Positions 1 to 18,705 of a stretch of DNA of 38,841 nt are shown here, piece after piece. Position 1 is the stretch's first letter. Each line of letters starts with the position of its first letter. Position numbers and translations under genes: made by a program. The notes below the pieces were generated by a model. That model was given only the letters and a program-made list of their open reading frames with translations, was not told the origin of the DNA and did no database searches. This DNA comes from Escherichia phage 13a: sequence record NC_011045.1. The stretch is one strand, 5' to 3'.

Positions 1-170
1 TCTCACAGTGTACGGACCTAAAGTTCCCCCATAGGGGTACCTAAAGCCCAGCCAATCACCTAAAGTTACCTTTCAGTTGACCTTGAGGGTCCCTAAGGGT
101 TGGGGTTGGTCCTTGGGTTTACCTTTGAGTTGGTCCTTTGGTGTTACCTTGAGTGTCTCTCCTTGTCCCT
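1..170. repeat. Left direct terminal repeat (170 bp)
   Basis: Bases 1-170 are repeated identically at 38672-38841 by eye; begins TCTCACAGTGTACGGACC as in the T7 terminal repeat. Confidence 0.93.
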
Positions 171-184
171 ATCTGTTACAGCCT

Positions 185-269
185 CCTAAAGTATCCTCCT
201 AAAGTATCCTCCTAAAGTCACCTCCTAAAGTCACCTCCTAAAGTCACATCCTAAAGACTACACCTAAAG
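185..269. repeat. Tandem array of CCTAAAG-containing 13-bp units (7 copies, strict 13-bp period)
   Basis: CCTAAAG at 185,198,211,224,237,250,263; same heptamer also 3x inside the terminal repeat. Confidence 0.85.
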
Positions 270-304
270 ACATCATCAAGTCAATGCCTATCTTAAAGTA
301 TAGA

Positions 305-369
305 CCTAAAGACCAGACCTAAAGACCATACCTAAAGACCATACCTAAAGACCATACCTAAAGACGCCT
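305..369. repeat. Second tandem array of CCTAAAGACCA-type 13-bp units (5 copies)
   Basis: CCTAAAG at 305,318,331,344,357. Confidence 0.85.
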
Positions 370-422
370 TGTTGTTAGCCATAAAGGGATAATCTTCAAT
401 CATTGTCTTTAATCACTGTCTT

Positions 423-445
423 TAATACGACTCACTATAAGGAGA
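423..445 (+). promoter_or_regulatory. T7-type promoter phiOL
   Basis: taatacgactcactataaggaga, 21/23 match to T7 consensus TAATACGACTCACTATAGGGAGA. Confidence 0.85.
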
Positions 446-503
446 GAGACCACTTAAAGAGACTTAAAGATGGATTAATTTAAAGATTTATTAAAAAAGA
501 GTA

Positions 504-540
504 TTGACTTTAAGTCCAACCCATAGGATACTTACAGCCA
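504..540 (+). promoter_or_regulatory. Early sigma70 promoter A1
   Basis: -35 ttgact (504-509), 17-nt spacer, -10 gatact (527-532); context matches T7 A1 as recalled. Confidence 0.8.
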
Positions 541-630
541 TCGAGAGGGACACGGTGAATAACCATCCTAATTCGACGCCGAGTCAAGCGGATAAGTAGA
601 CAACCTGATAAGTCGAACGAAAAACAGGTA

Positions 631-668
631 TTGACAACACGAAGTAACAAGTAGTAAGATACACAGCG
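631..668 (+). promoter_or_regulatory. Early sigma70 promoter A2
   Basis: -35 ttgaca (631-636), -10 taagat (655-660). Confidence 0.75.
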
Positions 669-736
669 TCAACCACGGATACGGTGTCTTCTAGGTGACT
701 TAAGCGCACCACGGCACATAAAGTTAAACAAGATGG

Positions 737-773
737 TTGACAACATGAAGTAAACACGGTACGATGTACCACA
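737..773 (+). promoter_or_regulatory. Early sigma70 promoter A3
   Basis: -35 ttgaca (737-742), 17-nt spacer, -10 tacgat (760-765). Confidence 0.8.
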
Positions 774-871
774 TGAAACTACAGTGAGTCACCACACTGA
801 AAGGTGATGCGGTCTAACGAAACCTGACCAAAGACGCTCTTTAACAATCTGGTAAATAGCTCTTGAGTGCA

Positions 872-927
872 TGAATAGTGGATAACTCAAGGGTATCGCA
901 AGGTGCCCTTTATGATATTCACTAACG
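872..927 (+). promoter_or_regulatory. R0.3-like RNase III processing hairpin, copy 1
   Basis: gataactcaagggtatcgcaaggtgccctttatgatattcactaa; shares the actcaagg...ggcc.tttatgat motif seen at other inter-genic RNase III sites in this window. Confidence 0.55.
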
Positions 928-944
928 ATGTAATAGGTGCAAAT

Positions 945-1142
945 ATGAGCAAATTAATAGCTTCCTCCAAATTGTCCGGTTGCTACACTGTGACCCTTCG
1001 GGAACACTTACACGGCAAGATGGGTAGTACCTATACGGTACGATACGGGAAGCAGGTGTCACACTTTGTGAATGAGAGGTTAGCGCACGATGAATATCTA
1101 GCGTGTGTGCATCACCAGCGTTCATGTGCAGGATGGGAGTGA
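945..1142 (+). CDS. Hypothetical small Cys/His-rich protein (65 aa) in an insertion upstream of ocr; not present in T7 as recalled
   Basis: ATG at 945 preceded by aggtg (935-939); ORF in track frame 903..1142; rare-codon rich (agg, cga, cgg, ata, cta); flanked by duplicated R0.3-like hairpins. Confidence 0.4.
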   Translation: MSKLIASSKLSGCYTVTLREHLHGKMGSTYTVRYGKQVSHFVNERLAHDEYLACVHHQRSCAGWE

Positions 1143-1190
1143 TAAACTCAAGGGTATCGCAAGGTGCCCTTCATGATTATCATTCATTAA
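1132..1190 (+). promoter_or_regulatory. R0.3-like RNase III processing hairpin, copy 2 (duplicate)
   Basis: gataaactcaagggtatcgcaaggtgcccttcatgattatcattcattaa; near-identical to copy 1 at 881-925. Confidence 0.55.
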
Positions 1191-1212
1191 CAACACTATG
1201 AGGTAACGCAAG

Positions 1213-1563
1213 ATGGCTATGTCTAACATGACTTACAACAACGTTTTCGACCACGCTTACGAAATGCTGAAAGAAAACATCCGTTATGATGACATCCGCG
1301 ACACTGACGACCTGCACGATGCTATTCATGAGGCTGCTGATAATGCAGTACCGCACTACTACTCTGACATCTTTAGCGTGATGGCAAGTGAAGGCATTTA
1401 TCACGAGTTCGAGGACTCTGGTCTGATGCCGGACACCAAGGATGTGACCCGCATCCTACAGGCTCGCATTTATGAGCAACTCACGATTGACCTTTGGGAA
1501 GACGCTGAGGACTTGCTGAACGAGTACCTTGAAGAAGTTGAGGAAGAGGAAGAGGACTTATAA
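1213..1563 (+). CDS. 0.3: Ocr, DNA-mimic anti-restriction protein (gene 0.3), 116 aa
   Basis: [22 protein letters not shown]... near-identical to T7 Ocr; acidic C-terminus. Confidence 0.95.
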
Positions 1564-1565
1564 TC

Positions 1566-1703
1566 ATGGTCAAGTATGGTCTAACAAAAGAGATGATTCA
1601 GACGTACCGCGTAGCGATGGCTTATGGTGCTCCTTTCGGGTACTGCATGGCGCAACTGGCTCAGACATACCGAGCACGTAAAGCGATGTACGGTAGCAAG
1701 TGA
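1566..1703 (+). CDS. 0.4: Small early protein, gene 0.4-like (45 aa)
   Basis: ATG 3 nt after ocr stop; position and size as T7 gene 0.4; below ORF-track cutoff. Confidence 0.5.
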
Positions 1704-1752
1704 TAGACTCAAGGTCGCTCTTAGAGAGAGTGGCCTTTATGATTATCATTCT
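1704..1752 (+). promoter_or_regulatory. RNase III site-like hairpin (R0.5-like)
   Basis: actcaaggtcgctcttagagagagtggcctttatgattatcatt. Confidence 0.5.
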
Positions 1753-1767
1753 ATGAGGATTAAACGT

Positions 1768-1902
1768 ATGACGACTGGAATCATTATGGCAACCTTTGCA
1801 GTAATCGTAGCGATGGGATGGCGCAACGCTGACCGGATGGCTATTGCTAACGGTCGTGCGCTCAACATAGACAAACAACTTGACGCAATGCTAATGGGCT
1901 GA
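1768..1902 (+). CDS. Small hydrophobic early protein (gene 0.5/0.6-like), 44 aa
   Basis: ATG 1768 with gagga SD 7 nt upstream; predicted TM segment [16 protein letters not shown]; track ORF 1624..1902 is the same frame extended upstream. Confidence 0.45.
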
Positions 1903-1962
1903 TAGTCTTATCTTACAGGTCATCTGCGGGTGGCCTGAATAGATACGATTTACTAACCGGAA
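1903..1962 (+). promoter_or_regulatory. RNase III site R1-like upstream of gene 1
   Basis: caggtcatctgcgggtggcctgaatagatacgatttactaa matches T7 gene 1 leader as recalled. Confidence 0.5.
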
Positions 1963-1972
1963 GAGGCACTAA

Positions 1973-4624
1973 ATGAACACGATTAACATCGCTAAGAACG
2001 ACTTCTCTGACATCGAACTGGCTGCTATCCCGTTCAACACTCTGGCTGACCATTACGGTGAGCGTTTAGCTCGCGAGCAGTTGGCCCTTGAGCACGAGTC
2101 TTACGAGATGGGTGAAGCACGCTTCCGCAAGATGTTTGAGCGTCAACTTAAAGCTGGTGAGGTTGCGGATAACGCTGCCGCCAAGCCTCTCATTACTACC
2201 CTGCTCCCTAAGATGATTGCACGCATCAACGATTGGTTTGAGGAAGTGAAAGCTAAGCGCGGCAAACGCCCGACAGCCTTCCAGTTCCTGCAAGAAATCA
2301 AGCCGGAAGCTGTAGCGTACATCACCATTAAGACCACTCTGGCTTGCCTCACGAGCGTAGACAATACAACCGTTCAGGCTGTAGCAAGTGCAATCGGTCG
2401 AGCTATTGAGGACGAGGCGCGCTTTGGTCGAATCCGTGACCTTGAGGCTAAGCACTTCAAGAAAAACGTTGAGGAACAACTTAACAAGCGCGTAGGGCAC
2501 GTCTACAAGAAAGCATTCATGCAGGTTGTTGAAGCGGACATGCTATCTAAGGGTCTACTGGGCGGTGAGGCGTGGTCTTCGTGGCACAAGGAGGACTCCA
2601 TTCACGTTGGGGTTCGCTGCATTGAAATGCTAATTGAGTCTACCGGAATGGTTAGCTTACACCGCCAAAACGCTGGCGTAGTTGGTCAAGACTCTGAGAC
2701 TATCGAACTAGCACCGGAATACGCTGAGGCTATCGCAACCCGTGCAGGTGCACTGGCTGGTATCTCTCCGATGTTCCAACCTTGCGTAGTTCCTCCTAAG
2801 CCTTGGACCGGTATTACTGGTGGTGGTTATTGGGCTAACGGTCGCCGCCCACTGGCGCTGGTACGTACCCACAGCAAGAAAGCACTGATGCGCTACGAAG
2901 ACGTTTACATGCCAGAGGTTTACAAGGCTATTAACATTGCGCAAAACACCGCATGGAAAATCAATAAGAAAGTCCTAGCGGTCGCCAATGTCATCACCAA
3001 ATGGAAGCACTGCCCTGTAGAGGATATCCCAGCGATTGAACGTGAAGAACTCCCGATGAAACCGGAAGACATCGACACGAATCCTGATGCTCTCACCGCG
3101 TGGAAACGTGCCGCTGCCGCTGTGTACCGTAAAGACAAGGCTCGCAAGTCTCGCCGTATCAGCCTTGAGTTCATGCTTGAGCAAGCCAATAAGTTCGCTA
3201 ACCATAAAGCCATCTGGTTCCCTTACAACATGGACTGGCGCGGTCGTGTTTACGCTGTGTCAATGTTCAACCCGCAAGGTAACGATATGACCAAGGGTCT
3301 GCTGACGCTGGCGAAAGGTAAACCAATCGGTAAGGAAGGTTACTACTGGTTGAAAATCCACGGTGCAAACTGTGCGGGTGTCGATAAGGTTCCATTCCCT
3401 GAGCGCATCAAGTTCATCGAGGACAACCACGAGAACATCATGGCTTGCGCTAAGTCTCCACTGGAGAACACTTGGTGGGCTGAGCAAGATTCTCCATTCT
3501 GCTTCCTCGCGTTCTGCTTTGAGTACGCTGGGGTACAGCACCACGGCCTTAGCTACAACTGCTCTCTTCCGCTGGCGTTCGATGGGTCTTGCTCTGGTAT
3601 TCAGCACTTCTCCGCGATGCTCCTTGATGAGATAGGTGGTCGTGCGGTTAACCTGCTGCCTAGTGAAACCGTTCAGGACATCTACGGGATTGTCGCTAAG
3701 AAAGTCAACGTGATTCTACAAGCAGATGTAATCAACGGGACCGACAACGAAGTAGTTACCGTGACCGATGAGAACACTGGTGAAATCTCTGAGAAAGTCA
3801 AGCTGGGCACTAAGGCGCTGGCTGGTCAATGGTTGGCTTACGGTGTTACTCGCAGCGTGACTAAGCGTTCAGTCATGACGCTGGCTTACGGGTCCAAAGA
3901 GTTTGGCTTCCGTCAACAAGTGCTGGAAGATACCATTCAGCCAGCTATTGATTCCGGTAAAGGTCTGATGTTCACTCAACCGAATCAGGCTGCTGGATAC
4001 ATGGCGAAACTGATTTGGGAAGCTGTGAGCGTGACGGTGGTAGCCGCTGTGGAAGCTATGAACTGGCTCAAGTCTGCTGCTAAGCTGCTGGCTGCTGAGG
4101 TCAAAGATAAGAAGACTGGAGAGATTCTTCGCAAGCGTTGCGCTGTGCATTGGGTGACTCCTGATGGTTTCCCTGTGTGGCAGGAATACAAGAAGCCGAT
4201 TCAGACCCGCTTGAACCTGATGTTCCTCGGTCAGTTCCGTCTACAGCCAACCATTAACACCAACAAGGATAGCGAGATTGACGCGCACAAGCAGGAGTCC
4301 GGCATCGCTCCTAACTTTGTACACAGCCAAGACGGTAGCCACCTGCGTAAAACTGTAGTGTGGGCGCACGAGAAGTACGGAATCGAATCCTTTGCACTGA
4401 TTCACGACTCCTTCGGGACCATTCCTGCCGACGCTGCCAACCTGTTCAAAGCTGTGCGCGAAACTATGGTTGACACCTATGAGTCTTGTGATGTACTGGC
4501 TGACTTCTACGACCAGTTCGCTGACCAGTTGCACGAGTCTCAATTGGATAAAATGCCAGCACTTCCGGCTAAGGGAAACTTGAATCTCCAAGACATCCTT
4601 AAGTCAGACTTCGCGTTCGCGTAA
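1973..4624 (+). CDS. 1: T7-type single-subunit DNA-dependent RNA polymerase (883 aa)
   Basis: 883-aa ORF, MNTINIAKNDFSDIELAAIPFNTLADHYGERLAREQ... near-identical to T7 RNAP. Confidence 0.99.
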   Translation: MNTINIAKNDFSDIELAAIPFNTLADHYGERLAREQLALEHESYEMGEARFRKMFERQLKAGEVADNAAAKPLITTLLPKMIARINDWFEEVKAKRGKRPTAFQFLQEIKPEAVAYITIKTTLACLTSVDNTTVQAVASAIGRAIEDEARFGRIRDLEAKHFKKNVEEQLNKRVGHVYKKAFMQVVEADMLSKGLLGGEAWSSWHKEDSIHVGVRCIEMLIESTGMVSLHRQNAGVVGQDSETIELAPEYAEAIATRAGALAGISPMFQPCVVPPKPWTGITGGGYWANGRRPLALVRTHSKKALMRYEDVYMPEVYKAINIAQNTAWKINKKVLAVANVITKWKHCPVEDIPAIEREELPMKPEDIDTNPDALTAWKRAAAAVYRKDKARKSRRISLEFMLEQANKFANHKAIWFPYNMDWRGRVYAVSMFNPQGNDMTKGLLTLAKGKPIGKEGYYWLKIHGANCAGVDKVPFPERIKFIEDNHENIMACAKSPLENTWWAEQDSPFCFLAFCFEYAGVQHHGLSYNCSLPLAFDGSCSGIQHFSAMLLDEIGGRAVNLLPSETVQDIYGIVAKKVNVILQADVINGTDNEVVTVTDENTGEISEKVKLGTKALAGQWLAYGVTRSVTKRSVMTLAYGSKEFGFRQQVLEDTIQPAIDSGKGLMFTQPNQAAGYMAKLIWEAVSVTVVAAVEAMNWLKSAAKLLAAEVKDKKTGEILRKRCAVHWVTPDGFPVWQEYKKPIQTRLNLMFLGQFRLQPTINTNKDSEIDAHKQESGIAPNFVHSQDGSHLRKTVVWAHEKYGIESFALIHDSFGTIPADAANLFKAVRETMVDTYESCDVLADFYDQFADQLHESQLDKMPALPAKGNLNLQDILKSDFAFA

Positions 4625-4632
4625 CGTCAAAT

Positions 4633-4655
4633 TAATACGACTCACTATAGAGGGA
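4633..4655 (+). promoter_or_regulatory. T7-type promoter phi1.1A
   Basis: taatacgactcactatagaggga. Confidence 0.85.
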
Positions 4656-4700
4656 CAAACTCAAGGTCATTCGCAAGAGTGGCCTTTATGATTGACCTTC
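4656..4700 (+). promoter_or_regulatory. RNase III site R1.1-like
   Basis: actcaaggtcattcgcaagagtggcctttatgattgacc. Confidence 0.5.
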
Positions 4701-4707
4701 TTCCGGT

Positions 4708-4730
4708 TAATACGACTCACTATAGGAGAA
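4708..4730 (+). promoter_or_regulatory. T7-type promoter phi1.1B
   Basis: taatacgactcactataggagaa. Confidence 0.85.
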
Positions 4731-4807
4731 CCTTAAGGTTTAACTTTAAGACCCTTAAGTGTTAATTAGAGATTTAAATTAAAGAATTATAAGAGAGGAC
4801 TTTAAGT
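4731..4807 (+). other. AT-rich region downstream of phi1.1A/B, candidate primary origin of replication
   Basis: AT-rich stretch following paired promoters, same arrangement as the T7 primary origin (established for T7, inferred here). Confidence 0.4.
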
Positions 4808-4936
4808 ATGCGTAACTTCGAAAAGATGACCAAACGTGCTAACCGTAACGCTCATGACTTCGAGGCAACTAAGGGTCGCAAGTTTAATAAACCATTACGA
4901 ACCCGTGCACATAAACGCTGCTGGGAGGGTCAATAA
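4808..4936 (+). CDS. 1.1: gp1.1 small basic protein (42 aa)
   Basis: MRNFEKMTKRANRNAHDFEATKGRK... matches T7 gp1.1. Confidence 0.85.
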   Translation: MRNFEKMTKRANRNAHDFEATKGRKFNKPLRTRAHKRCWEGQ

Positions 4937-4937
4937 G

Positions 4938-5195
4938 ATGGGACGTTTATATAATGGGAACTTGAATGACTTCAAGGCTGCTTGCAACAGGCTATACCAG
5001 TTGGACTTTGCTGTTATAGCTGTTGAGCAGGAAGGTTCACCAAACATAAAGGCAACCATGTACCTTCGGATTGAAGACCGTACTGGTCGCATAGTGGTTC
5101 AGGAAGAGATTCACCACTGCGACGAAGACGTTCTGTACAATATGTGTACTGATTGGCTGAACCGTATGTATGACCAGTTGAAGGACTGGAAGTAA
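4938..5195 (+). CDS. 1.2: gp1.2 inhibitor of host dGTP triphosphohydrolase (85 aa)
   Basis: MGRLYNGNLNDFKAACNRLYQLD...DEDVLYNMCTDWLNRMYDQLKDWK matches T7 gp1.2; track ORF 4836..5195 is the same frame with upstream extension. Confidence 0.9.
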   Translation: MGRLYNGNLNDFKAACNRLYQLDFAVIAVEQEGSPNIKATMYLRIEDRTGRIVVQEEIHHCDEDVLYNMCTDWLNRMYDQLKDWK

Positions 5196-5215
5196 TACGA
5201 CTCAGTATAGGGACA
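5193..5215 (+). promoter_or_regulatory. T7-type promoter phi1.3
   Basis: taatacgactcagtatagggaca. Confidence 0.8.
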
Positions 5216-5258
5216 ATGCTTAAGGTCGCTCATTGAGTGGCCTTAGTCATTTAACCAA
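5216..5258 (+). promoter_or_regulatory. RNase III site R1.3-like
   Basis: aatgcttaaggtcgctcattgagtggccttagtcattt. Confidence 0.5.
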
Positions 5259-5273
5259 TAGGAGATAAACATT

Positions 5274-6296
5274 ATGATGAACATTAAGACTAGCCCGTTT
5301 AAAGCCGTGTCCTTTGTTGAGTCCGCAGTGAAGAAGGCATTAGACAACGCTGGATACCTAATTGTAGATTGTAAATATGACGGTGTGCGTGGTAATATCT
5401 GCGTAGACAATACCGCTAACAGTTGCTGGCTCTCTCGTGTTTCTAAAACGATTCCGGCACTGGAGCACTTAAACGGGTTTGATGTTCGCTGGAAGCGTCT
5501 ACTGAGCGATGACCGTTGCTTCTACAAGGATGGCTTTATGCTCGATGGGGAACTCATGGTCAAAGGCGTAGACTTTAACACAGGGTCCGGCCTACTGCGC
5601 ACCAAATGGACTGACACCAAGAACCAAGAGTTCCACGAAGTGTTATTCGTTGAACCAGTCCGTAAGAAAGATAAAATTCCGTTCCACTTACACGCCGCAA
5701 AACTCCAAGTAAAACTGTACGCTATCCTCCCGCTGCACATCGTGGAGTCTGGAGAAGACTGCGATGTCATGACGTTGCTCATGCAGGAACACGTTAAGAA
5801 CATGCTGCCTCTGCTACAGGAATACTTCCCTGAAATTGAATGGCAAGCGGCTGAGTCTTACGAGGTCTACGATATGGTAGAACTACAGCAACTGTATGAG
5901 AAGAAGCGCGAAGAAGGACACGAGGGTCTCATTGTGAAAGACCCGATGTGTATCTATAAGCGCGGTAAGAAGTCCCGCTGGTGGAAACTCAAGCCTCTTG
6001 AGCAAGCTGACGGCATCATTCAAGGTGTAAACTGGGGAACCGAAGGACTTGCTAACGAAGGTAAAGTGATTGGCTTTAGTGTCTTGCTAGAAAGCGGGTG
6101 TGTAGTCGATGCCAATAACATCTCACGGGAACTGATGGATGAATTTACAGCTAACGTTAAAGAACATGGCGATGACTACTATAACGGCTGGGCTTGTCAG
6201 ATTGGGTACATGGAGCAAACACCTAATGGAAACCTTAGACACCCATCCTTCACCTGCTTCCGTGGCACCGAGGACAACCCTCAAGAGAAAATGTAA
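5274..6296 (+). CDS. 1.3: ATP-dependent DNA ligase (340 aa)
   Basis: MMNIKTSPFKAVSFVESAVKKALDNAGYLIVDCKYDGVRGN... (adenylation motif KYDGVR); T7 ligase homolog, slightly shorter. Confidence 0.97.
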   Translation: MMNIKTSPFKAVSFVESAVKKALDNAGYLIVDCKYDGVRGNICVDNTANSCWLSRVSKTIPALEHLNGFDVRWKRLLSDDRCFYKDGFMLDGELMVKGVDFNTGSGLLRTKWTDTKNQEFHEVLFVEPVRKKDKIPFHLHAAKLQVKLYAILPLHIVESGEDCDVMTLLMQEHVKNMLPLLQEYFPEIEWQAAESYEVYDMVELQQLYEKKREEGHEGLIVKDPMCIYKRGKKSRWWKLKPLEQADGIIQGVNWGTEGLANEGKVIGFSVLLESGCVVDANNISRELMDEFTANVKEHGDDYYNGWACQIGYMEQTPNGNLRHPSFTCFRGTEDNPQEKM

Positions 6297-9412: not shown

Positions 9413-11601
<2,189 letters not shown>

Positions 11602-18034: not shown

Positions 18035-18313
18035 ATGGGTAAGAAAGTTAAGAAGGCCGTGAAGAAAGTCACTAAGTCCGTTAAGAAAGTCGTCAATGGA
18101 GTGGCTGGCGGTCTGGCTGGTCTGGCTGGTGGCGCTGGTGAAGCACAGGTGGTGGAAGCACCACAAGCTGCCGCACAGATTGTTGACGTACCTGAGAAAG
18201 AGGTTTCCACTGAGGACGAAGCACAGACCGAAAGCGGACGTAAGAAAGCTCGTGCTGGCGGTAAGAAGTCCTTGAGCGTTGCCCGTAGCTCTGGCGGGGG
18301 TATAAATATATGA
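18035..18313 (+). CDS. 7.3: gp7.3 tail/virion assembly protein (92 aa)
   Basis: MGKKVKKAVKKVTKSVKKVVNGVAGGLAGLAGGAGEAQ... T7 gp7.3-like. Confidence 0.88.
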   Translation: MGKKVKKAVKKVTKSVKKVVNGVAGGLAGLAGGAGEAQVVEAPQAAAQIVDVPEKEVSTEDEAQTESGRKKARAGGKKSLSVARSSGGGINI

Positions 18314-18705
18314 CAGATTGTATCGAGTGGACTGGCTACCTCACAAAAGATGGGTACGGCGAAACTCGACTGAATGGTGTCAAATTTAGGGTTCATCGTC
18401 TAGAATGGATTAAACAAAGAGGCCCAATACCTGAAGGTCTAGTTGTTCGCCATAAGTGCGATAACCCTAAATGTTACAATATCGAACACCTTGAGCTAGG
18501 AACAACTCAGGATAACACTAGAGATAGGGTCTTGAGGAATAGAAGCGCAAAGGGAGTACGTAATGGAAATTCCAAATTAACACCTGATGTCGTTCTGGCA
18601 ATACGCGCAAGTAGTAAGACCCACAAGCTGATAGCCGAAGAGTTCGGTGTATCCAAATCAGTTGTGACACAGATACGAGCACGTAAGACATGGAGGCATA
18701 TCTAA
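18310..18705 (+). CDS. 7.7: HNH endonuclease gp7.7 (131 aa)
   Basis: HRLEWIKQRGPIPEGLVVRHKCDNPKCYNIEHLELGTTQDN HNH motif; T7 gene 7.7 position. Confidence 0.9.
   Translation: MTDCIEWTGYLTKDGYGETRLNGVKFRVHRLEWIKQRGPIPEGLVVRHKCDNPKCYNIEHLELGTTQDNTRDRVLRNRSAKGVRNGNSKLTPDVVLAIRASSKTHKLIAEEFGVSKSVVTQIRARKTWRHI

What the first reader, a model, noticed from the sequence alone, without database searches (positions are those of the whole stretch)
872..1212. Insertion bracketed by a duplicated R0.3-like RNase III hairpin upstream of ocr, carrying a small compositionally foreign ORF
Seen directly: an about 45-bp segment (gataactcaagggtatcgcaaggtgccctttatgatattcactaa, 881-925) recurs almost exactly at 1141-1189 (gataaactcaagggtatcgcaaggtgcccttcatgattatcattcattaa), and about 215 bp of unique sequence lies between. 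In T7 as I recall it, a single copy of this hairpin is followed directly by the ocr start; here ocr (1213) follows copy 2, while copy 1 is followed at the same leader distance by an ATG (945, SD-like aggtg 935-939) opening a 65-aa ORF (MSKLIASSKLSGCYTVTLREHLHGKMGSTYTVRYGKQVSHFVNERLAHDEYLACVHHQRSCAGWE) that ends as copy 2 begins. The ORF is rich in Cys/His (possible small metal-binding protein) and in codons rare in the flanking T7-like genes (agg, cga, cgg, ata, cta, gga), suggesting recent acquisition. It would be the first gene transcribed and injected, next to the anti-restriction gene, which is where anti-defence and host-takeover genes cluster in T7-like phages, so a new anti-defence function is a reasonable hypothesis. 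Alternatively the insert could be a processed non-coding RNA released by cleavage at both hairpins.
Basis: partly seen in the sequence, partly recalled or inferred. Interest (0 to 1): 0.7.

Follow-up and report, generated by a model that had tools for sequence, protein, structure and literature searches.

The report
Phage 13a gene 0.45 cassette
The segment is the already annotated early gene 0.45 of coliphage 13a, a conserved small protein of unknown function that sits between two RNase III processing hairpins and was moved in front of the anti-restriction gene ocr by recombination at those hairpins; it is a tidy example of gene shuffling rather than a new kind of element.

Summary
Two RNase III-type hairpins (876-927 and 1137-1188; core 45 nt, 87% identical) bracket about 215 bp holding a 65-aa ORF (945-1142) just upstream of ocr (1213).

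The window is Escherichia phage 13a. The ORF is its annotated gp0.45 (ACF15884.1), a homolog (65% aa) of Yersinia phage phiYeO3-12 gene 0.45 and a member of PHROG 6500. Intact homologs occur in 166 phage records. They are under strong purifying selection (median dN/dS 0.08) and have distant relatives in many phages.

AlphaFold gives a confident four-strand sheet plus C-terminal helix (pLDDT 91.5). No characterised relative was found, so function is unknown.

In other T7-like phages the same gene lies downstream of genes 0.3/0.4, also between two hairpins. Phage JB01 has the same two hairpins as 13a but a different cargo gene. The hairpins therefore delimit exchangeable "leader + gene" cassettes.

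Copy 2 is not a plain duplicate. It has an R0.5-type lower stem and an R0.3-type upper stem.

"Recent acquisition" is not supported, a metal site is only partly supported, and an anti-defence role is untested. The non-coding RNA alternative is rejected.

The deposited GTG-903 start (79 aa) is probably wrong; ATG 945 is the likely start.

Interest is low to moderate, and the feature is already known.

The parts
504..765 (+). Host-RNA-polymerase early promoters A1 (504-532), A2 (631-660) and A3 (737-765). They drive the early transcript that contains the cassette.
   Evidence: The sigma-70 consensus scan finds all three, and finds no terminator-like site between 380 and 2000. Their positions are colinear with the annotated T7 A1/A2/A3.
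876..927 (+). RNase III processing hairpin copy 1, the native R0.3 type. The predicted cut lies between 913 and 914 (UUUAU^GAU).
   Evidence: It is nearly identical to the T7 R0.3 hairpin. It folds at -22.4 kcal/mol with z = -3.7. The equivalent sequence is annotated as RNase III site R0.3 in Yersinia phage R and in T3. The cut position is inferred from my recollection of the T7 coordinates (890 and 1468).
924..1136 (+). The exchangeable cargo segment, consisting of leader plus ORF. Homology to phage JB01 stops after 923 and resumes at 1137.
   Evidence: Direct comparison of 13a and JB01 sequences. In the same slot JB01 carries a 94-aa PHROG 9817 gene with its own leader.
935..939 (+). Shine-Dalgarno-like AGGTG, 5 nt upstream of ATG 945.
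   Evidence: Read from the sequence. The leader aligns with the gene 0.45 leaders of EG1, Bas103 and Yep_15.
945..1142 (+). Gene 0.45 coding sequence, 65 aa plus the TGA stop. The deposited record starts it at GTG 903 (79 aa), which is probably wrong.
   Evidence: It matches PHROG 6500 at E = 4.5e-37 and is 65% identical to phiYeO3-12 gp0.45. P0001 is 'gp0.45 [Escherichia phage 13a]'. All 18 homologs recovered by the motif search (which itself requires an N-terminal M[SN]K) begin MSKL/MNKL, and median dN/dS among them is 0.076. The AlphaFold model has pLDDT 91.5.
1137..1188 (+). RNase III processing hairpin copy 2, a chimera of an R0.5/R0.45-type lower stem and an R0.3-type upper stem. The predicted cut lies between 1174 and 1175. 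The stop codon of gene 0.45 lies in its 5' lower stem.
   Evidence: It folds at -22.1 kcal/mol with z = -3.8. JB01 has the same chimera. Lower-stem differences from copy 1 are compensatory.
1213..1563 (+). Gene 0.3 (ocr), the anti-restriction DNA mimic. It keeps its own hairpin and leader immediately upstream.
   Evidence: It is 95% identical to T7 Ocr by tblastn. The ORF is listed, and the annotated features under the matches are.
1698..1754 (+). R0.5 RNase III hairpin downstream of gene 0.4. It has the same lower-stem type as copy 2.
   Evidence: Motif scans. It folds at -23.1 kcal/mol and matches T7 1429-1476 at 92% identity.

Best explanation
The region is a monocistronic early-gene cassette of Escherichia phage 13a. 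Gene 0.45 (65 aa, ATG 945 to TGA 1142) and its own leader sit between two RNase III processing hairpins.

**Shown**
- The gene belongs to a conserved family under purifying selection, which is normally found downstream of gene 0.3 or 0.4 in T7/T3-like phages.
- In Teseptimaviruses it usually lies between two R0.5-type hairpins.
- In 13a it lies in front of ocr instead.
- Phage JB01 has the same two hairpins but holds a different gene.
- In phage EG1 the two cargo genes lie side by side, each bounded by hairpins.

**Inferred: origin**
- The conserved hairpin sequences are about 50 bp, share the boxes CTCAAGG and CCTTTATGAT, and are imperfect palindromes.
- I propose that they serve as patches of homology at which the efficient T7 recombination system exchanges 'leader + gene' modules between co-infecting phages.
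- A double exchange replaced the single R0.3 hairpin with hairpin-gene-hairpin, and patchy conversion produced the chimeric second hairpin.

**Inferred: expression**
- Host RNA polymerase transcribes from A1-A3.
- RNase III cuts at about 913/914 and 1174/1175, releasing a gene 0.45 mRNA of about 261 nt whose 3' end keeps the upper stem.
- ocr keeps a processing site directly upstream, as it has in T7.

**Inferred, weakest: function**
- The protein is a compact four-strand sheet plus C-terminal helix with a conserved C-x2-H-x3-C-A-G-[WFY] end.
- It most likely acts as a dispensable early accessory protein that binds a host macromolecule (host takeover or defence inhibition), not as an enzyme.
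For: **Identity**
- P0001 is 'gp0.45 [Escherichia phage 13a]' on a 38,841-bp contig, the same length as the window.
- PHROG 6500 matches at E = 4.5e-37, and the protein is 65% identical to phiYeO3-12 gp0.45, which is preceded by an annotated 'RNase III site R0.45'.

**Coding status**
- 166 phage records hold a homolog, and 157 of them cover at least 80% of the query.
- pN is about 0.23 against pS about 0.8 versus 13a, and median dN/dS among the homologs is 0.076.
- All family-wide conserved residues are retained in 13a.
- The AlphaFold model has pLDDT 91.5, and similar folds occur in many uncharacterised small phage proteins (TM 0.7-0.85).

**Hairpins**
- Both copies fold well.
- In 20 unique hairpins, 8 of 17 pairs show compensatory changes.
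- The same motif class also occurs at 1708, 4660 and 17012 in the window.

**Cassette behaviour**
- The same slot holds different cargo in JB01.
- The same cargo occupies other hairpin-bounded slots in Bas103, EG1, Yep_15, L016, L018 and L019.
- In L022 the 94-aa gene lies between R0.3 and a fully R0.5-type hairpin, upstream of a divergent ocr.
- Leaders travel with their cargo.

**Recombination and expression**
- T3 x T7 crossovers within 8 bp of homology at pseudo-palindromes are documented (PMC3276506).
- RNase III processing of the T7 early transcript into mono- and dicistronic mRNAs is documented (PMC4858673).
- Promoters are present and no terminator was found.
- Distant homologs sit among small early genes upstream of the phage RNA polymerase gene.
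Against: - No experiment here shows cleavage at either hairpin, translation of the ORF, or any phenotype.
- The chimeric copy 2 cannot arise from one simple crossover. It needs patchy conversion or compensatory evolution, so the exact history is uncertain.
- The reverse history, an ancestral two-hairpin state lost in T7, is not formally excluded.
- In Przondoviruses the gene abuts the SAM hydrolase gene with no hairpins, so hairpins are not obligatory for this gene.
- The chimeric hairpin signature was found in no other real locus in IMG/VR or JGI metagenomes, so this particular slot is rare.
Confidence: 0.8

Rival explanations
1. One reading: a recently acquired, compositionally foreign gene that encodes a new anti-defence protein and is expressed first, alongside ocr.
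For: - It is the first gene after A1-A3.
- It is adjacent to ocr, or to the SAM hydrolase gene in relatives.
- Its codon usage is in the lowest 3% of 65-codon windows, similar to the genome's HNH endonuclease genes.
- One distant homolog lies near an Acb2/Tad1-like gene.
- The gene is variably present among close relatives; T3 lacks it and phiYeO3-12 has it.
Against: - It is not new: it is annotated as gp0.45 and belongs to a 166-record family.
- It is not demonstrably recent. No donor closer than 72% in protein was found, and synonymous sites are saturated.
- GC content equals the genome's.
- It is not acidic like DNA mimics; its pI is 8.9 against 4.05 for Ocr.
- There is no functional evidence at all.
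Confidence: 0.25
2. The insert is a processed non-coding RNA released by cleavage at both hairpins, and the ORF is fortuitous.
For: Two predicted RNase III sites would release an RNA of about 261 nt.
Against: - The ORF is conserved as protein, with median dN/dS of 0.076 and synonymous sites saturated against 13a.
- 157 of 166 records cover at least 80% of the protein query.
- The predicted protein fold is confident.
- The insert RNA has no excess structure: z = +1.13, with 174 of 200 shuffles folding at least as well.
- There are no Rfam hits in 1-6000.
Confidence: 0.03
3. gp0.45 is a small zinc or metal-binding protein whose Cys/His residues form the functional site.
For: - C54, H57 and C61 are conserved across the distant family, spaced i, i+3 and i+7 on the C-terminal helix.
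- H23 and H40 are invariant within the close subfamily.
Against: - Only three candidate ligands are conserved family-wide, and H23/H40 are lost in distant members.
- C13 of 13a is not aligned with the Cys of relatives.
- There is no zinc-domain hit in Pfam at any meaningful E-value.
- The conserved helix face could simply be core packing against the sheet.
- Model coordinates could not be inspected.
Confidence: 0.25
4. The two-hairpin arrangement is ancestral, and T7 and most relatives lost the cassette by hairpin-to-hairpin deletion. On this view nothing was inserted in 13a.
For: - Recombination between flanking hairpins would delete a cassette cleanly.
- 13a and JB01 could each descend from an ancestor with both cargos in tandem, as in EG1.
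Against: - Only 13a, JB01 and one IMG/VR contig show cargo at this slot, whereas all other listed T7-like records have a single hairpin.
- The lower stem of copy 2 is of the type found downstream of cassettes located elsewhere, which points to import.
Confidence: 0.1
5. gp0.45 is a nucleic-acid-binding regulator with an AP2-, WGR- or integrase-arm-like fold.
Against: - Basic residues on the sheet are not conserved in distant members.
- There is no sequence-level hit to these domains.
Confidence: 0.15

Closest known systems
Gene 0.45 of Yersinia phage phiYeO3-12 and its homologs (gp0.45 of Salmonella phage phiSG-JL2 and of Citrobacter phages; PHROG 6500)
   Same: - 65% amino-acid identity over the full length, and the same size (65-66 aa).
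- The same early-region location, preceded by an RNase III hairpin (R0.45).
- The same MSKL start.
- The same conserved H23, H40, C54, H57 and C61.
   Different: - In 13a the gene lies upstream of gene 0.3 rather than downstream.
- The 13a allele is a deep branch, at most 72% identical to any other and alone in its 90% cluster.
- It ends in E rather than ND, and its stop codon is fused into the hairpin.
T7-group RNase III processing sites R0.3 and R0.5
   Same: - The same sequence boxes (CUCAAGG ... CCUUUAUGAU).
- The same lower stem / internal loop / upper stem architecture, supported by covariation.
- The same role of separating early cistrons (PMC4858673).
   Different: - 13a has two sites before ocr where T7 has one.
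- The second site combines an R0.5-type lower stem with an R0.3-type upper stem. This combination was seen only in 13a and JB01.
Phage JB01 (MW074885) R0.3-cargo-hairpin-ocr locus
   Same: Both hairpins and both flanks are identical or nearly so (97.9% over the aligned parts), and so is the chimeric second hairpin.
   Different: The cargo is an unrelated 94-aa gene (PHROG 9817) with its own leader.
Phage 'morons' and other mosaic accessory-gene modules
   Same: It is a small, variably present accessory gene with its own expression signals, inserted between conserved genes.
   Different: It has no promoter or terminator of its own. Its boundaries are RNA-processing hairpins within an operon, and the exchange appears to be homology-driven at those hairpins.

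Membership tests
gp0.45 family (phiYeO3-12 gene 0.45 / PHROG 6500) | Full-length sequence homology to family members | tested here: met
   PHROG 6500 matches at E = 4.5e-37 over residues 1-65 of a 66-position profile. BLASTP against phiYeO3-12 gp0.45 gives 65% identity at E = 8e-32.
gp0.45 family (phiYeO3-12 gene 0.45 / PHROG 6500) | Protein of about 65-66 aa encoded in the class I early region, between the A promoters and gene 1 | tested here: met
   The 65-aa ORF at 945-1142 lies between A3 (737-765) and the RNA polymerase gene (1973-4624).
gp0.45 family (phiYeO3-12 gene 0.45 / PHROG 6500) | Retention of the residues conserved across the family (V16, Y34, G35, A47, C54, H57, C61, G63) | tested here: met
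   All are present in the 13a protein.
T7-group RNase III processing site (R0.3/R0.5 class) | Conserved boxes CTCAAGG ... CC(C/T)TT(T/C)ATGA flanking an upper stem | tested here: met
   Both copies match (886-915 and 1147-1176), as do R0.5, R1.1 and R6.5 of the window.
T7-group RNase III processing site (R0.3/R0.5 class) | Lower stem / internal loop / upper stem structure supported by covariation | tested here: met
   Folds have z of about -3.7. In 20 unique hairpins, 8 of 17 consensus pairs show compensatory changes.
T7-group RNase III processing site (R0.3/R0.5 class) | Cleavage by host RNase III in vivo | not testable with these tools
   It needs RNA end mapping in rnc+ and rnc- hosts. The predicted cuts at 913/914 and 1174/1175 are inferred by homology to T7.
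Zinc-finger or metal-binding small protein | Four conserved Cys/His ligands in a recognised spacing, or a match to a zinc-domain profile | tested here: not met
   Only C54, H57 and C61 are conserved family-wide. There is no meaningful Pfam hit. Metal content could not be tested.
Known anti-restriction or anti-defence proteins (Ocr-like DNA mimics, Acr and similar) | Sequence or structural homology to a characterised inhibitor, or DNA-mimic acidity | tested here: not met
AP2 / WGR / integrase-arm DNA-binding fold | Significant structural match plus conserved nucleic-acid-contacting residues | tested here: inconclusive
Autonomous mobile element (homing endonuclease gene, transposon) | Encodes its own nuclease or transposase | tested here: not met
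   The only ORF with homologs in the 215-bp insert is the 65-aa gp0.45. The HNH genes of this genome lie elsewhere.

The most novel reading that the evidence does not exclude
The conserved RNase III hairpins of the T7 group may do double duty. As RNA they act as processing sites. As DNA they would act as portable homology boxes, possibly extruding as cruciforms, that let co-infecting Studiervirinae swap ready-to-express 'leader + gene' early cassettes into any hairpin slot. On this reading the gp0.45 family, placed first in 13a, is an uncharacterised inhibitor of a host defence or housekeeping target that works through its conserved C-x2-H-x3-CAG[WFY] end.
Probability: 0.25. Interest if true: 0.55.

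Novelty: already known. Interest (0 to 1): 0.27.

Why it matters
For the gene itself it matters little. It is an annotated 'hypothetical' early gene of a 2008 genome record and belongs to a named family.

Three points have some value:

- **An uncharacterised early-gene family.** The gp0.45 family is widespread, strongly conserved and confidently folded. It is expressed in the first minutes of infection, next to Ocr or the SAM hydrolase, and nothing is known about its function. It is a reasonable candidate for host-takeover or anti-defence screens.
- **Exchange of early genes at processing sites.** Comparing 13a, JB01, EG1, Bas103 and L022 gives a clean natural example of early genes being exchanged as units bounded by RNase III sites. 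This helps explain the mosaicism of the 0.3-0.7 region. It also suggests a design rule for engineering T7-like phages: insert cargo as hairpin-leader-gene-hairpin.
- **An annotation correction.** The deposited start codon of 13a gp0.45 should probably be changed from GTG 903 to ATG 945.

Tried and rejected
- **Rfam scan of 1-6000** at E <= 1: no hits.
- **Pfam and NCBIfam** for gp0.45 and for the JB01 cargo: none. Scanning all 28 members of the distant alignment against Pfam gave only noise.
- **PDB by sequence profile:** nothing.
- **Foldseek against the PDB:** nothing. The afdb50 library was unavailable.
- **Large repeat proteins in the representative search** (for example P0054, with 'YTVTFNANGHG' repeats) matched positions 5-40. 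I dismissed them as spurious beta-hairpin repeat similarity.
- **Search for the chimeric hairpin signature GATAAACTCAAGGGTATCG:** one chance match inside an unrelated coding region in IMG/VR, and none in JGI metagenomes.
- **First single-sequence searches** of the protein database and of IMG/VR returned very few hits because of word-index limits. Alignment queries did better.
- **Literature searches** for gp0.45 function, for phage 13a, and for RNase III sites as recombination boundaries found no functional data and no explicit description of hairpin-bounded cassette exchange. The phiYeO3-12 genome paper is not held.
- **Structured non-coding RNA:** rejected.
- **Simple tandem duplication of R0.3:** rejected, because the lower stem of copy 2 is R0.5-type on both sides.
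Full report
**1. The observation**

- A hairpin-forming segment at 881-925 recurs at 1141-1189, with 215 nt between the two.
- An ATG at 945, preceded by AGGTG at 935-939, opens a 65-codon ORF.
- The ORF's TGA (1140-1142) lies in the first bases of the second copy.
- ocr starts at 1213.

The repeat finder reports 877-921 against 1138-1182, 45 nt at 87% identity. Both copies fold into the same structure of lower stem, internal loop and upper stem. Their energies are -22.4 and -22.1 kcal/mol, with z about -3.7, and no shuffle out of 200 folds as well.

**2. What genome this is**

- The window is about 93% identical to T7 over its first 20 kb.
- The protein database holds the ORF, in a 79-aa form, as 'gp0.45 [Escherichia phage 13a]' (ACF15884.1 / YP_002003934.1). 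It sits on a contig of 38,841 bp, exactly the window length.
- The window is therefore phage 13a, and the ORF is already annotated.
- 13a itself is not in the phage collection that I searched by DNA. This is why no record covers the whole query.

**3. The ORF is a real, conserved gene**

Family membership:
- It matches PHROG 6500 (function unknown) at E = 4.5e-37.
- It is 65% identical to gene 0.45 of Yersinia phage phiYeO3-12. That record annotates a 'putative RNase III site R0.45' just upstream of the gene.
- tblastn finds homologs in 166 phage records from Klebsiella, Escherichia, Yersinia, Salmonella, Citrobacter and other hosts. Of these, 157 cover at least 80% of the query, and the best is 72% identical.
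- A paper on Citrobacter phages lists such homologs as gp0.45 without any function (PMC4925675).

Selection:
- Against 16 distinct homologs, the 13a allele has pN of about 0.23 and pS of about 0.8, so synonymous sites are saturated.
- Among the homologs, median dN/dS is 0.076.

Start codon:
- The 18 homologs recovered by a motif search (which itself requires M[SN]K at the N-terminus) all begin MSKL or MNKL, matching ATG 945.
- GTG 903, used in the deposited 79-aa form, lies in the upper stem of hairpin copy 1.
- It is also upstream of the predicted RNase III cut, between 913 and 914 in UUUAU^GAU. This position is inferred by homology to the T7 cut positions 890 and 1468, which I recall from Dunn and Studier 1983 and which fall at the same motif in both T7 hairpins.
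- ATG 945 is therefore the likelier start.

Non-coding alternative:
- The insert RNA shows no excess secondary structure (z = +1.13).
- Rfam finds nothing.
- The non-coding RNA alternative is rejected.

**4. The protein**

Distant relatives:
- A profile search of 1.8 billion representative proteins finds about 30 further small proteins of 60-87 aa at 26-44% identity.
- The family-wide conserved positions are V16, Y34-G35, A47, C54, H57, C61 and G63. This gives the pattern YG ... A..E[YF]..C..H...CAG[WFY].
- H23 and H40 are invariant only in the close subfamily.

Structure:
- AlphaFold, run with a 25-sequence alignment, gives pLDDT 91.5. The model has four beta strands (2-8, 16-22, 28-34, 37-41) and a helix (44-61).
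- Foldseek against viral models finds many uncharacterised small phage proteins with TM 0.7-0.85.
- Foldseek against the PDB finds nothing.

Other properties:
- There are no Pfam, NCBIfam or PDB sequence matches.
- The pI is 8.9, so it is not an Ocr-like acidic mimic.
- C54, H57 and C61 lie at i, i+3 and i+7 on one face of the helix. This could be a three-ligand metal or thiol site, or simply core packing. I could not inspect the coordinates.
- Distant homologs sit among small genes at the start of early operons, in one case upstream of a phage RNA polymerase gene.

Function remains unknown. My best guess, at about one in three, is a dispensable early protein that binds a host macromolecule.

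**5. Composition**

- GC content is 0.487 against 0.484 for the genome.
- CAI referenced to the genome's own long ORFs is 0.598, against a mean of 0.701 with sd 0.055. Only 3% of 65-codon windows score as low.
- The only long ORFs with lower values are two HNH endonuclease genes.
- Codon usage is therefore atypical to a degree consistent with horizontal origin. It gives no evidence that the acquisition was recent, and no close donor exists in the databases.

**6. The hairpins and the cassette**

The motif CTCAAGG ... CCTTTATGA marks five sites in the window: 886, 1147, 1708 (R0.5), 4660 (R1.1) and 17012 (R6.5). In 20 unique hairpins from 13a and its relatives, the consensus structure has 17 pairs, and 8 of them show compensatory double changes.

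The two copies differ in type:
- Copy 1 is the T7-type R0.3.
- Copy 2 has the R0.3 upper stem (GGGTATCGCAAGGTGCCC).
- Both sides of copy 2's lower stem are the type found at R0.5/R0.45 sites: AGTGATAAACTC ... ATGATTATCATTC. The latter is 13/13 identical to 13a's own R0.5.

The comparative picture is the key evidence:
- **JB01** has the same copy 1 and the same chimeric copy 2. Between them it carries an unrelated 94-aa gene (PHROG 9817) with a different leader. Homology to 13a ends after 923 and resumes at 1137.
- **EG1** has, downstream of gene 0.4, the order hairpin, 94-aa gene, hairpin, gene 0.45, hairpin.
- **Bas103, L016, L018 and L019** have gene 0.45 between two R0.5-type hairpins after gene 0.4. 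**Yep_15** has it between two such hairpins after the SAM hydrolase gene.
- **L022**, an IMG/VR contig, has R0.3, the 94-aa gene, a fully R0.5-type hairpin, and then a divergent ocr.
- **T3** lacks gene 0.45 where **phiYeO3-12** has it.
- **Przondoviruses** have gene 0.45 abutting the SAM hydrolase gene with no hairpins.
- The leader always travels with its cargo.

The unit that moves is therefore 'leader + gene', and the boundaries are the hairpins.

**7. Mechanism**

*Expression (inferred from T7).* The early transcript made by host RNA polymerase is cut co-transcriptionally by RNase III into mono- and dicistronic mRNAs (PMC4858673). Promoters A1-A3 are present, and there is no terminator before gene 1. 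Cuts at about 913/914 and 1174/1175 would release a gene 0.45 mRNA of about 261 nt that ends in the upper stem of copy 2. ocr would keep a processing site just upstream, as in T7.

*Origin (inferred).* Homologous exchange took place at the roughly 50-bp hairpin sequences. T3 x T7 crossovers within as little as 8 bp of homology, at pseudo-palindromes proposed to be cut by endonuclease I, are documented (PMC3276506). The chimeric copy 2 needs more than one crossover, for example patchy heteroduplex repair or later compensatory change. The last codon and stop (GAG TGA TAA ACT) resemble the gene 0.4/R0.5 junction of relatives, which suggests that the right-hand junction lies at the very end of the ORF. 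An ancestor with both cargos in tandem that lost one or the other by hairpin-to-hairpin deletion would equally explain 13a and JB01.

**8. Comparison with what is known, and verdict**

- The gene is a member of the gp0.45 family, and all membership tests were met.
- The hairpins are members of the T7-group RNase III site class. Sequence, structure and covariation tests were met; cleavage could not be tested.
- It is not a recognisable zinc finger, not a known anti-defence protein, and not an autonomous mobile element.
Its claims of novelty and recency were not. Its functional hypothesis remains untested.
- I found no paper in the held library that gives a function for gp0.45 or that explicitly describes RNase III sites as cassette boundaries. 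The phenomenon fits ordinary phage mosaicism.
- I rate the feature as already known, with low to moderate interest.

Noticed in passing
window 1768-1902 (junction about 1819-1823): 13a lacks genes 0.6 and 0.7 (protein kinase / host shut-off). A 44-aa ORF fuses the start of a small Bas103_0009-like membrane protein gene to the last 31 or so codons of gene 0.7. Window 1699-1823 matches Bas103 L002 2034-2156, and window 1819-2100 matches L002 3475-3756, which implies a deletion of about 1.3 kb. The T7 kinase normally stimulates RNase III (PMC4858673).
   Followed up: partly
window 903-944: The public record starts gp0.45 at GTG 903 (79 aa). That codon lies in the upper stem of the R0.3 hairpin, upstream of the predicted RNase III cut, and all homologs begin at the MSKL that corresponds to ATG 945. 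The start is probably misannotated.
   Followed up: yes
window 1566-1703: The gene 0.4 of 13a is a divergent allele. In the closely related JB01 locus tblastn gives only 35% identity to T7 gp0.4; in the window T7 gp0.4 gave no tblastn hit at E 1e-4. It matches PHROG 5058 and resembles a Klebsiella phage KpV766 protein. JB01 shares it.
   Followed up: partly
window 9413-9892 and 18310-18702: The two long ORFs with the most atypical codon usage in the genome (CAI 0.57-0.58, GC3 about 0.4) are HNH endonucleases, which are presumably homing genes.
   Followed up: partly
L015 1373-2428 (IMG/VR copy of a phage P694-like genome): One phage carries both a SAM hydrolase gene and ocr in tandem, separated by an R0.5-type hairpin and followed by genes 0.4 and 0.45. 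This is another hairpin-bounded cassette arrangement.
   Followed up: no
L001 1649-1933 (JB01); L003 1645-1929 (EG1); L022 1491-1772: A 94-aa protein of unknown function (PHROG 9817) behaves as a second hairpin-bounded cassette. It is found either in front of ocr or next to gene 0.45.
   Followed up: partly
L029 6812-7039: In a metagenomic contig that carries a single-subunit phage RNA polymerase gene, a distant gp0.45 homolog lies about 1.6 kb from an oppositely oriented gene with an Acb2/Tad1-hairpin Pfam hit, which is an anti-defence family.
   Followed up: no
window 158-365: There are arrays of 13-nt tandem repeats of the CCTAAAG type near the left end. This is the usual T7-group left-end repeat structure.
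   Followed up: no
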